From: a virus
Strand: one strand, 5' to 3'
DNA length: 64,000 bases
Virus record (IMG/VR): IMGVR_UViG_3300034071_001657
Of this stretch, positions 5,733 to 17,097 are shown one piece after another. Each line of letters starts with the position of its first letter. The stretch's first letter is position 1. The notes below the pieces were generated by a model, which ran no database searches, was not told where the DNA came from, and worked only from the letters and a program-made list of their open reading frames with translations. The translations under genes and the position numbers were made by a program.

Positions 5733-5848
5733 CAGTGCATCTCCTTGTGCGGATACTTCGGAGGCTTGCGCCGTTTGTCCGAGACTATTCGCATTTTGTA
5801 TTTGGGGGACCGAAGGTCCCGCGCAACAGGATTTCTTTTTGTCTTCAC
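5732..5848 (-). CDS. small basic protein, ArfA-like (38 aa)
   Basis: MKTKRNPVARDLRSPKYKMRIVSDKRRKPPKYPHKEMH; GTGA and TGATG overlaps on both sides. Confidence 0.55.
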   Translation of the reverse strand: MKTKRNPVARDLRSPKYKMRIVSDKRRKPPKYPHKEMH

Positions 5849-6246
5849 TTTACAAGTTTGTATGGTTTGTTCCACTTACCGATGTTGACATCGACATAGT
5901 AAGCGGTGTTAAAGTAATCGGTCTGTGCATCAGACTCATCGTACCAATCGGCACCCTTCAGGGCACGGAAAGCTTCCGTCAGAAAGTTCTTGGCAACACC
6001 GCTGAAGTGTTCATGGAACCAGTACGGGTTTACGTCAATCGAACCGTAACGGCGAACGAAGGATTCATCTTTGCACTTGCCATCGGCCAAATAGTTCTCG
6101 ATGAAATCGATTTTGCCAGACTTCACATTCAGCACGATAGTCGAATGATTGTGAACCGCAAGAGTGCCTTTGACGCCGTATTTAGCCAGGATCGGCTTGA
6201 GCAGGGAGGCAATCTTTGCTTTCTTTTCTTGGGACATGTAAGCCAT
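5845..6246 (-). CDS. conserved hypothetical phage protein
   Basis: MAYMSQE...WYDESDAQTDYFNTAYYVDVNIGKWNKPY. Confidence 0.75.
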   Translation of the reverse strand: MAYMSQEKKAKIASLLKPILAKYGVKGTLAVHNHSTIVLNVKSGKIDFIENYLADGKCKDESFVRRYGSIDVNPYWFHEHFSGVAKNFLTEAFRALKGADWYDESDAQTDYFNTAYYVDVNIGKWNKPYKLVK

Positions 6247-6634: not shown

Positions 6635-6973
6635 TTACTTACCAGACCGAGCCTTTCGCATTCTTGCATAGAGCATTTTAATTGCAGCCTTGTGCCCATA
6701 CTTCATGATTTCCTCCCTATGGAGGCGACCCTCTTCCCTAAGTTTGGCGTGATATTCTTCGCTGGCTGCGGCTACTTCCTTAGCAAGTTCAGGACCGTAA
6801 GTCAGAACACCGACGGCCTCTTCAATCTCACGTTTTACTTTTGTTGCTGATACTCCGTAAATCTCCGCAACCATGCGGACCCGCGCATAATGTGGAGTAG
6901 TGCTCTCACCCATATAGCCAGCACTATGAGCAATTTCAGCCTCGCGGCGAATCGTTTCTTCGTAGGTTCTCAT
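6635..6973 (-). CDS. hypothetical protein
   Basis: AGGAG SD, downstream of promoter. Confidence 0.6.
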   Translation of the reverse strand: MRTYEETIRREAEIAHSAGYMGESTTPHYARVRMVAEIYGVSATKVKREIEEAVGVLTYGPELAKEVAAASEEYHAKLREEGRLHREEIMKYGHKAAIKMLYARMRKARSGK

Positions 6974-13907: not shown

Positions 13908-14206
13908 GTCCTATGATTTTCAGCTACCCATTCATTGCCATCGTATTCTTGAATGTGCCATTCGATGCCGTCAGGAATTTCGATAATCTTAAGACTTGAG
14001 AATTTTGTGTCGGCACGTTCACCTAACGTTTCTACAACTTTCACTAGATTAGGATCAGATCGAAACACCGTCAATTCGCGCGAGCCTTGAAGCCTCCACA
14101 AGTCTGCGATAAATTGCATTGATTTACCTGACAATTCTGCATACAACTGTTTTGCTTCATCTGAGAGATCAAAACCACCGAAACACTTATTCAAAACAAC
14201 TTTCAT
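13898..14206 (-). CDS. conserved hypothetical phage protein
   Basis: MKVVLNKCFGGFDLS...RSDPNLVKVVETLG...EYDGNEWVAENHRTW. Confidence 0.75.
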   Translation of the reverse strand: MKVVLNKCFGGFDLSDEAKQLYAELSGKSMQFIADLWRLQGSRELTVFRSDPNLVKVVETLGERADTKFSSLKIIEIPDGIEWHIQEYDGNEWVAENHRTWR

Positions 14207-14393: not shown

Positions 14394-14870
14394 TTATGCT
14401 GCTTTTGTGTGACATAAAATATGCTTGAACCTATCTGCTGCACCTGACGCCGCGAAAGCATTAGGCTTAACCATCGGAATAACATTACACATACCTTTGA
14501 TGTATCCAACTGCTTCATTTATAACACATGAACTTCCATGATCTTCATTTGGATTGATGTCTAGATGAACTTCAACTTCTCGATCATCTAGAACCTCAGC
14601 CAACTTAAGATATAATTCGGCAATCTTATAAACTTCATTCATTAGTCGCATTCTAGGTTTGTCTTTGCGTTGATCATAGTCCTTCTCACGAATGGTTTCT
14701 CCAAAGATTTTACATCCGTGCTTTCCTTCGATATGAATCACGACCACTAAAGTATAGTCGGCATACCAAACGCCTTTGATTTTAAATCTTTCTGAATCGC
14801 CACCGATATAGATTTTACTTGTGATCGGCTGTCCCTCGATGAAAGTTTTTACTTGATCAATGTTCATCAT
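14394..14870 (-). CDS. RNase H-like YkuK-family protein
   Basis: IYIGGDS, VVIH..GKHG, RLMNEV, EVHLDIN, KPNAFAASGAAD. Confidence 0.85.
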   Translation of the reverse strand: MMNIDQVKTFIEGQPITSKIYIGGDSERFKIKGVWYADYTLVVVIHIEGKHGCKIFGETIREKDYDQRKDKPRMRLMNEVYKIAELYLKLAEVLDDREVEVHLDINPNEDHGSSCVINEAVGYIKGMCNVIPMVKPNAFAASGAADRFKHILCHTKAA

Positions 14871-16323: not shown

Positions 16324-16413
16324 TGGTGAGTAGAGAGGGATTCGAACCCCCAACGGTTCCTAAGTAACGGATTTACAGTCCGCCGCGACACTCGCCATCT
16401 TCGCCGTCTACTC
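16324..16413 (-). tRNA. tRNA-Tyr (GTA)
   Basis: GCGGA-CT-GTA-AA-TCCGT, long variable arm. Confidence 0.9.
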
Positions 16414-16417
16414 ATTT

Positions 16418-16742
16418 CCATATTGAAACACACTCAACATTACACCCTTGATTCGCTGCTGCTACTAGGGGCGGGTTCTAATGTGTTTCAATATGGTCCG
16501 AGACTCGAACTCGGCATGTAAGCGGCTTCGCAATCGGGTAGCGCAATTTCCCTAGCACTGACTAACACAGGTTAATTAAGCCCGCTCTCATCAGTGAAGC
16601 CTACACAGCTTCCTGCACCATATTGAAACACACTTGAGGTAACCGTGACAAGCGGGGGCTTTTTACACCTCTCTACCTGCGTGCTCACCAGACAGTCACT
16701 TCTGTTCTAAGGACGCTTTCGATTTAGTGTGCTTCAGTATGG
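16418..16742 (-). ncRNA. putative structured ncRNA module: four 17-nt inverted-repeat arms and a T-arm-bearing tRNA mimic
   Basis: CCATATTGAAACACACT at 16418-16434 and 16618-16634; complements at 16480-16496 and 16726-16742; T arm CCGAG-TTCGAGT-CTCGG at 16498-16514. Confidence 0.7.
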
Positions 16743-16816
16743 TGCCTCAGGTGGGACTCGAACCCACAAAATTTGGCTTCTAAGACCAACACGTATACCA
16801 ATTCCGTCACCGAGGC
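16740..16816 (-). tRNA. tRNA-Leu (TAG), short variable arm
   Basis: TTGGT-CT-TAG-AA-GCCAA, A73, CCA. Confidence 0.85.
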
Positions 16817-17038: not shown

Positions 17039-17097
17039 ATTCTACAGACTTTTCTATGGAATGTCAAGAACAAATTCTACTGTTGTTTTTTTACAAC
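17039..17097 (-). promoter_or_regulatory. sigma70 promoter of tRNA operon with TGTTG-N8-CAAC palindrome
   Basis: TTGACA(17062-17067)-N17-TAGAAT; palindrome 17081-17097. Confidence 0.85.

What the first reader, a model, noticed from the sequence alone, without database searches (positions are those of the whole stretch)
16418..16742. Unexplained ncRNA cassette in the tRNA operon: four 17-nt arms framing two inserts and a tRNA-elbow mimic
Seen: on the transcribed (minus) strand the order is tRNA-Leu CCA / arm A (CCATACTGAAGCACACT, 16726-16742, sharing the tRNA's CCA) / 91-nt insert / arm A' (AGTGTGTTTCAATATGG, 16618-16634) / 121-nt middle / arm A (16480-16496) / 45-nt insert / arm A' (16418-16434) / tRNA-Tyr. 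The two A' copies are identical and 200 bp apart, but the inserts are unrelated. Two of the three deviations from perfect pairing are G-U wobbles on this strand, which suggests selection on RNA pairing. The middle segment ends in a perfect T arm (CCGAG-TTCGAGT-CTCGG) followed by ACCA. Pairing its flanking A' with the next A gives a cloverleaf with an 18-bp extended acceptor, a mini D hairpin (CAG-GAAG-CTG) and a large branched domain in place of the anticodon arm (TGTAGGCTTC/GAAGCC..TTACA). The arms can therefore pair in two mutually exclusive registers. Inference: a modular small-RNA expression system in which constant stalks (RNase III-like processing stems or protein-binding handles) deliver variable RNAs, possibly tRNA decoys or anti-defence RNAs. 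I cannot assign it to any family I recognise.
Basis: partly seen in the sequence, partly recalled or inferred. Interest (0 to 1): 0.85.

Follow-up and report, generated by a model that had tools for sequence, protein, structure and literature searches.

The report
RNase III-clamped phage small-RNA cassettes
Between two tRNA genes of a freshwater-type T4-like phage sit three small structured RNA genes, two of them clamped by stems shaped like cutting sites of the host enzyme RNase III; they belong to a large, apparently undescribed phage RNA family with more than 200 swappable cargoes whose job is still unknown.

Summary
The four arms, both inserts and the T arm are as described. They belong to a phage-restricted family, with more than 500 stalks in about 235 viral loci; this scan noted what looks like the same family on other phages.

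The selected pairing is A with its own downstream A': 42/70 deviations are compensated, against 2/43 in the other register. Conservation tracks E. coli RNase III recognition boxes. One cut register meets 7.7 of 10 determinants (others at most 53%) and agrees with T7 R1.1, the 16S rRNA stalk and the annotated ends of phage T5 RNAIII. No phage RNase III was found in 20 carriers.

Predicted products are tRNA-Leu, clamped RNAs of 113 and 67 nt, a 133-nt tRNA-elbow-like RNA closed by 6 bp of leftover arm, and tRNA-Tyr. The 18-bp acceptor and the two-state switch are not conserved. Cargoes fall into 215 unrelated clusters and swap between 99%-identical phages; about 10% carry T-loops.

The closest known RNAs are T5's stalk-released stable RNAs of unknown function. 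Cleavage and expression are inferred, not shown. A decoy or aptamer role is a guess. Cultivated phage BUCT-ZZ01 carries stalks and offers a test system.

The parts
17039..17067 (-). sigma70-type promoter-like site (11/12) upstream of tRNA-Arg/Leu/Leu and the cassette
   Evidence: consensus match only
16740..16816 (-). tRNA-Leu(UAG); its CCA is the first 3 nt of stalk 1
16726..16742 (-). arm A1, 5' strand of stalk 1; predicted RNase III cut between 16736 and 16735
   Evidence: cut inferred
16635..16725 (-). cargo 1 (91 nt), two-hairpin structured RNA; homologues in L006, L014, L017, L256 with compensatory changes
16618..16634 (-). arm A'1 (B1), 3' strand of stalk 1; predicted cut between 16623 and 16622
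16490..16622 (-). predicted 133-nt middle RNA: 6-bp terminal helix from leftover arm stubs, conserved AGG in the D-loop position, long P2 helix with branched domain, T arm 16514-16498, ACCA
16480..16496 (-). arm A2, 5' strand of stalk 2; predicted cut between 16490 and 16489
16435..16479 (-). cargo 2 (45 nt), hairpin with a bulged-G/loop-E-like motif; found after other tRNAs in L014, L019, L079, L088; replaced by an unrelated 100-nt cargo in L003
16418..16434 (-). arm A'2 (B2), 3' strand of stalk 2; predicted cut between 16423 and 16422
16324..16413 (-). tRNA-Tyr(GUA); ARAGORN calls 16324-16404, but the 7-bp acceptor begins at 16413
14394..14870 (-). YkuK/PF04308 RNase H-like gene embedded in the same tRNA cluster (associated, not required)

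Best explanation
Each A-insert-A' unit is a 17-bp RNA stalk built as a host RNase III site inside the phage tRNA polycistron. Shown here: the pairing register, its covariation, the conservation pattern and the exchange of cargoes. Inferred: RNase III cuts after arm position 7 and after position 12 of A', leaving 2-nt 3' overhangs. That would free the upstream tRNA with CCA plus a 4-nt trailer, a small RNA clamped by a 10-bp stem that carries the variable cargo, and the downstream RNA with a short leader ending before GG. Where two stalks are adjacent, the leftover stubs re-pair (6 bp) and close the RNA between them, here a tRNA-elbow-like RNA that cannot decode. The constant arms also act as recombination handles, so cargoes are exchanged like accessory genes. 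Least certain step (about 35%): the cargoes are protein-binding decoys or aptamers used in the phage-host arms race, about a tenth of them tRNA mimics.
For: (1) Register: 42/70 deviating cells are compensatory in A-A' against 2/43 in A'-A (shuffle mean 3.3, max 10); G-U 116 vs A-C 22; pairing probability 0.97 vs 0.013. (2) In 73 divergent stalks, conservation peaks at position 10 (A-U 66/73, never G-C/C-G), 15, 16 (U-G 44) and 17 (U-A 67); position 8, next to the cut, is least conserved and most often mismatched. This matches the E. coli RNase III rules of PMC1540722: distal box UA/UG, G-C excluded at proximal box position 2. (3) A cut after position 7 meets 7.7/10 determinants with 0/157 inhibitory pairs at either proximal position 2; all other registers meet 28-53%. 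(4) The same register fits T7 R1.1, the E. coli 16S stalk (using the known +115/+33 precursor ends) and the annotated ends of T5 RNAIII (CCA+4 nt; 2-nt overhang). (5) 100 stalks lack the CCA end but keep the inner 10-bp core, against 7-8 in shuffles. (6) No phage RNase III in 0/20 carrier genomes. (7) 338 cargoes fall into 215 clusters; T-loops in 22 against 0.2 expected; L003 is 99.4% identical in the flank yet has another cargo.
Against: There are no RNA data, so neither expression nor cleavage is shown. The canonical arm, including both window stalks, has G-C at proximal position 4, which in E. coli lowers cleavage about 14-fold without lowering binding. The register was chosen after seeing the data, the outer five pairs were fixed by my search, and the stalks are related by descent. 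The host and its RNase III specificity are unknown. Cargoes as a set fold only slightly better than shuffles (mean z -0.45). Nothing tested bears directly on cargo function.
Confidence: 0.7

Rival explanations
1. The stalks bind RNase III (or another dsRNA-binding protein) but are cut slowly or not at all, acting as sponges or protective handles; flanking tRNAs are released by RNase P, RNase E and exonucleases.
For: G-C at proximal position 4 in 188/224 canonical stalks is a catalytic antideterminant for E. coli RNase III; G-C or C-G in 98/157 distinct arm pairs.
Against: Divergent stalks mostly have A-U, U-A or mismatches there. T5 RNAIII's annotated ends fall at the predicted cut. A pure sponge does not explain 215 conserved, structured cargo types.
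Confidence: 0.12
2. A phage enzyme, the YkuK/PF04308 RNase H-like nuclease encoded in the same tRNA cluster, recognises and cuts or trims the stalks.
For: The gene lies inside the window's tRNA cluster. It is the commonest neighbour of stalk loci (61 loci) and is present in 13/20 carrier genomes.
Against: It is absent from one complete 400-kb carrier and present in cultivated phages with no stalk in the region scanned (DLP6, BUDD, KVP40, MD18). The conservation pattern is already explained by RNase III boxes.
Confidence: 0.08
3. The arms are DNA-level terminal inverted repeats of a small mobile element or recombination cassette, and the inserts are passengers.
For: Cargoes move between positions and genomes; up to 10 units per locus.
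Against: G-U far exceeds A-C on the tRNA strand. Units start exactly at tRNA CCA (159/351) and often end on the next tRNA's first two bases (56). Cargoes covary as RNA. No transposase or recombinase was recognised among the commonest neighbours.
Confidence: 0.05
4. One reading: the arms toggle between two registers, one giving a tRNA with an 18-bp acceptor.
For: Both registers can form in this window with similar minimum energies (-118.2 vs -115.5 kcal/mol).
Against: No covariation in the A'-A register. Homologues of the middle RNA keep only 6 bp. In L160 neighbouring stalks differ in sequence, so cross-pairing is not possible.
Confidence: 0.05

Closest known systems
Phage T5 stable RNAs RNAIII, RNA2H, RNAIV (stalk-closed) and RNAI, RNA1, RNA2 (GenBank AY543070, annotated 'stable RNA with unknown functions')
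   Same: In a phage tRNA cluster. RNAIII sits in a stalk that starts on the CCA of the preceding RNA and ends on UGG of the next tRNA. Its annotated ends give CCA+4 nt and a 2-nt 3' overhang, as predicted here. tRNA-like RNAs are interspersed.
   Different: T5 stalks differ from each other and lack the UA/UG distal box. T5 RNAIII is 95-100% conserved in about 295 phages, whereas here one arm design carries more than 200 exchangeable cargoes. No cargo homology was detected.
E. coli RNase III processing stalks: T7 R1.1 and the 16S rRNA leader/trailer helix (PMC1540722)
   Same: The same four pairs at the distal end, the same proximal-box pattern and the same spacing to the cut.
   Different: In those systems the enclosed or flanking RNA is fixed. 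Here the stalk is repeated, overlaps tRNA ends and encloses a variable small RNA. The canonical arm carries G-C at proximal position 4.
T4 RNA C and RNA D (species 1 and 2; function unknown, PMC3014915, PMC9697503)
   Same: Stable RNAs from a T4-like tRNA cluster; RNA C ends in a T arm like the middle RNA.
   Different: No stalk and no sequence homology. The middle-RNA model scores RNA C no better than ordinary tRNAs.
tRNA arrays with variable spacers (Altae-Tran et al. 2023, PMC10910872)
   Same: tRNA arrays with variable sequence between tRNAs, some linked to RNase H-type genes.
   Different: The passage read describes similarly sized spacers between tRNAs and no inverted-repeat stalks; its supplementary figures were not checked.

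Membership tests
RNase III substrate (E. coli rules) | dsRNA helix of at least 11 bp from the cut, at least 6 nt on the other side | tested here: met
   17-bp stalk: 10 bp inside plus 7 bp outside the predicted cut; cargo 1 homologues continue into further helices. Inner helix is at the lower limit.
RNase III substrate (E. coli rules) | distal box U-A then U-G | tested here: met
   Position 17 U-A 207/224 and position 16 U-G 178/224, both left free in the search. Window stalk 1 has C-G at 16, as in the 16S stalk.
RNase III substrate (E. coli rules) | no G-C/C-G at proximal box position 2 (both sides) | tested here: met
   0/157 arm pairs; the outer side was fixed by the search pattern.
RNase III substrate (E. 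coli rules) | A-U/U-A at inner proximal box position 4 | tested here: not met
   G-C in both window stalks and 188/224 canonical ones. This slows but does not abolish cleavage in E. coli.
RNase III substrate (E. coli rules) | actual cleavage with 2-nt 3' overhang | not testable with these tools
   needs RNA end mapping or in vitro assay
T5 stalk-released stable RNAs (RNAIII type) | stalk spanning upstream CCA to downstream UGG in a tRNA cluster | tested here: met
T5 stalk-released stable RNAs (RNAIII type) | sequence homology of arms or cargo | tested here: not met
   no T5-like hit for the cassette; middle-RNA model gives only tRNA-level scores in T5
T4 RNA C/D | sequence or structure homology | tested here: not met
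   nhmmer best E about 3; shared words lie in RNA D's variable part; covariance model 17.4 bits, equal to ordinary tRNAs
tRNA (decoding) | 7-bp acceptor with free NCCA and an anticodon loop | tested here: not met
   middle RNA missed by ARAGORN and Rfam; CCA is paired and the anticodon arm is replaced by a branched domain
Y RNA / YrlA-Ro60 system | Rfam match or a co-occurring Ro60-like gene | tested here: not met
   no Rfam hit; the vWA-containing DUF2828 gene is in only 3/20 carriers; TROVE itself was not searched
Self-cleaving ribozymes (hammerhead and others in Rfam) | catalytic core motifs | tested here: not met
   0/215 cargoes with a hammerhead core; no Rfam hit in the regions scanned

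The most novel reading that the evidence does not exclude
Aquatic T4-like phages carry an exchangeable library of more than 200 natural RNA aptamers or decoys. Each is plugged into a standard RNase III clamp that uses tRNA CCA ends as part of the cut site, and the released RNAs neutralise host proteins such as anti-phage nucleases or tRNA-binding factors: an RNA counterpart of accessory anti-defence genes.
Probability: 0.33. Interest if true: 0.92.

Novelty: new variant of a known kind. Interest (0 to 1): 0.72.

Why it matters
It is essentially phage-restricted, with one short contig in GTDB, and was not found in Rfam or in the literature searched. It supplies precise, falsifiable RNA end coordinates and a cultivated carrier (BUCT-ZZ01). 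It also links to a decades-old open question, the role of the stable RNAs in T5 and T4 tRNA clusters, by suggesting a shared RNase III release route for the T5 stalk-closed ones. If the cargoes are decoys, this is a large untapped source of natural aptamers and anti-defence RNAs. The stalk itself would be a compact natural device for expressing several small RNAs from one transcript.

Tried and rejected
- Rfam: only tRNAs and chance miRNA hits (one search showed only the top 150 of 209 hits).
- BLAST of the cassette against cultivated phages: nothing.
- Literature searches for the arm words and the concept: nothing relevant. The library lacks most subscription papers.
- No RNA holder was listed for the region; this is not evidence either way.
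- No whole genome is held for the window.
- T4 RNA D homology of the middle RNA: rejected.
- Hammerhead reading of the CUGAUGA word: rejected, no stem I.
- Sarcin-ricin-loop mimicry by cargo 2: a 7-nt identity only, not enriched among cargoes; kept as a weak lead.
- Antisense or sense matches of cargoes to E. coli rRNA: at chance level apart from T-loops.
- CRISPR-handle resemblance of an 8-nt word in the arm: dropped, because that word is paired and varies in divergent stalks.
- DUF2828 as partner: 3/20. Phage RNase III: 0/20.
- Stub re-pairing as a general rule for all middle RNAs: only weak support (42/53 vs 29-37 in controls).
- Krinke and Wulff's paper was not retrievable.
- The Planktophila MAG hit is a 1.5-kb contig and was not accepted as host evidence.

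Full report
OBSERVATION. The window is a T4-like phage: its DNA polymerase is about 55% identical to those of marine cyanomyoviruses. It has 24 tRNA genes on the minus strand. Rfam finds nothing but tRNAs. A sigma70-like promoter lies three tRNAs upstream.

FAMILY. In 235 loci there are 351 distinct A-insert-A' units. Of these, 159 begin exactly on a tRNA's CCA, 56 end on the first two bases of the next tRNA, and none encloses a tRNA in the first set checked. A relaxed scan finds 509 stalks against 1 in shuffles. Earlier notes of this scan (e1-5318426, e1-5407280) describe what seems to be the same family on other phages and also named RNase III stalks as the closest known system. The register analysis below is my own test.

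REGISTER. Where an arm deviates from consensus, its own downstream partner compensates in 42 of 70 cells. The upstream partner does so in 2 of 43, and shuffled partners give a mean of 3.3. G-U outnumbers A-C 116 to 22 on the tRNA strand. The unit is therefore an RNA hairpin A-cargo-A'. In the window the alternative register is close in minimum energy but has probability 0.013 against 0.97.

WHAT THE STALK IS. Pertzev and Nicholson (PMC1540722) define E. coli RNase III sites by a distal box (U-A, then a stringently required U-G) and a 4-bp proximal box whose position 2 excludes G-C. Aligned to T7 R1.1, arm positions 17 and 16 are the distal box and positions 11-8 the proximal box. Positions 15-17 were free in my searches, yet they are U-A in 207/224 and U-G in 178/224. 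In 73 divergent stalks, position 10 is the best-conserved inner pair and is never G-C or C-G, while position 8, beside the cut, is the least conserved. The terminal five pairs form a second, outer proximal box placed symmetrically about a 2-nt staggered cut, so the tRNA's CCA doubles as part of the site.

Scoring all registers, a cut after position 7 meets 7.7 of 10 determinants and the others 28-53%. The E. coli 16S stalk fits the same register when the established +115/+33 precursor ends are used (those ends are from my own knowledge). One hundred further stalks keep the inner core with different outer pairs (7-8 expected). None of 20 carrier genomes encodes RNase III, which points to the host enzyme.

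Caveats: the register was chosen after inspection, the outer pairs were fixed by the search, and the sequences are related. The canonical G-C at position 8 is a catalytic antideterminant in E. coli (14-fold), so slow cutting or binding without cutting remains open.

PREDICTED PRODUCTS (inferred). tRNA-Leu with a 4-nt trailer; RNA 16735-16623 (113 nt); RNA 16622-16490 (133 nt); RNA 16489-16423 (67 nt); and tRNA-Tyr with a 9-nt leader. The one C-A mismatch of stalk 1 lies between the two cuts.

MIDDLE RNA. It has distant homologues in L113, L160, L261 and L299. Four of five T-arm pairs change on both sides, and 9 of 30 pairs overall do so (five distinct sequences only). The T-loop and an AGG in the D-loop position are invariant. 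The terminal helix is conserved for 6 bp only, exactly the stubs that two RNase III cuts would leave. The 18-bp acceptor is thus a local accident, and the D hairpin is unsupported. The RNA looks like a tRNA elbow without a usable acceptor end or anticodon.

CARGOES. 338 cargoes fall into 215 clusters, 152 of them singletons. The only enriched motif tested is the T-loop (22 vs 0.2). There are no hammerhead cores and no rRNA complementarity above chance. Cargo 1 covaries among five homologues. Cargo 2 recurs after different tRNAs and is replaced by an unrelated cargo in L003, whose flank is 99.4% identical. Conservation within families, together with rapid exchange between them, is how accessory genes behave under host-driven selection. 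That is the basis, and the only basis, for the decoy or aptamer guess.

PARTNER PROTEINS. A YkuK/PF04308 RNase H-like gene lies in the window's tRNA cluster and is the commonest neighbour. It is missing from one complete carrier and present in cultivated phages where no stalk was found in the region scanned. DUF2828 is in 3/20 carriers. Following YkuK led to a cultivated carrier: Synechococcus phage BUCT-ZZ01 has a canonical stalk just before a permuted tmRNA, two variant stalks after tRNA-Lys and a further one upstream. Its host is as deposited in GenBank.

COMPARISON. Phage T5's GenBank record lists stable RNAs of unknown function in its tRNA cluster. RNAIII and RNA2H lie in long stalks, and their annotated ends form 2-nt 3' overhangs. 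RNAIII's stalk starts on the CCA of RNAI, is cut four bases later and ends on UGG of tRNA-His, the same geometry as predicted here. I did not check the experimental basis of those annotated ends. There is no sequence homology with T5 or T4 RNAs. The system therefore works like T5's stalk-released RNAs and like T7 and rRNA RNase III stalks but is not a member of a described family. What is new is one standard clamp carrying hundreds of swappable cargoes.

VERDICT. The feature is real, widespread and absent from the sources searched. The processing mechanism is probable (0.7) and the cargo function is unknown (decoy or aptamer about 0.33). It is a new variant of a known kind; interest 0.72.

Noticed in passing
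window:14394-14870 (-): YkuK/PF04308 RNase H-like gene inside the tRNA cluster. Homologues also sit in or near the tRNA clusters of DLP6, BUDD, MD18, KVP40 and BUCT-ZZ01, and beside tRNA-repair genes (CCA-adding enzyme, Thg1, RNA ligase, PNK) in Rhizobium phage RHph_I1_18; a candidate phage tRNA-processing nuclease.
   Followed up: partly
L348:8053-8471; L346:3713-4056: Permuted (two-piece) tmRNA genes, not annotated in the regions fetched, in phages BUCT-ZZ01 and DLP6; in BUCT-ZZ01 it lies directly after a stalk.
   Followed up: partly
L348:12305-13708; L350:8514-9950: DUF2828+DUF7788 (vWA) protein, annotated RNA-binding in KVP40, recurs near phage tRNA clusters (11 stalk loci); possibly Ro60-like in architecture.
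   Followed up: partly
window:17176-17925 (-): PF11927 (haem-dependent oxidative N-demethylase alpha-subunit-like) gene between tRNA-Ile2 and tRNA-Cys, conserved in related tRNA clusters.
   Followed up: no
L160:1-700: Array of three divergent stalks alternating with structured spacer RNAs, with no tRNA in between.
   Followed up: partly
L008 and L024 (flipped 5777-5888; 600-714): A related tRNA-like RNA with a large insert occurs once as cargo inside a stalk and once as spacer between stalks.
   Followed up: no
L002:13255-13332 and 14004-14081: Cargo cluster shares two short motifs with the conserved frame of T4 RNA D; not significant by nhmmer.
   Followed up: partly
L010:4150-4348: Group I intron (Rfam RF00028) inside a phage tRNA cluster.
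   Followed up: no
window:16324-16413 (-): tRNA-Tyr 5' end is mis-called by ARAGORN; the true acceptor starts 9 nt further upstream.
   Followed up: yes
L355:4285-4390, 5809-5980, 6839-6941: T5 RNAIII, RNA2H and RNAIV look like RNase III products from their annotated ends; not found stated in the papers searched.
   Followed up: partly
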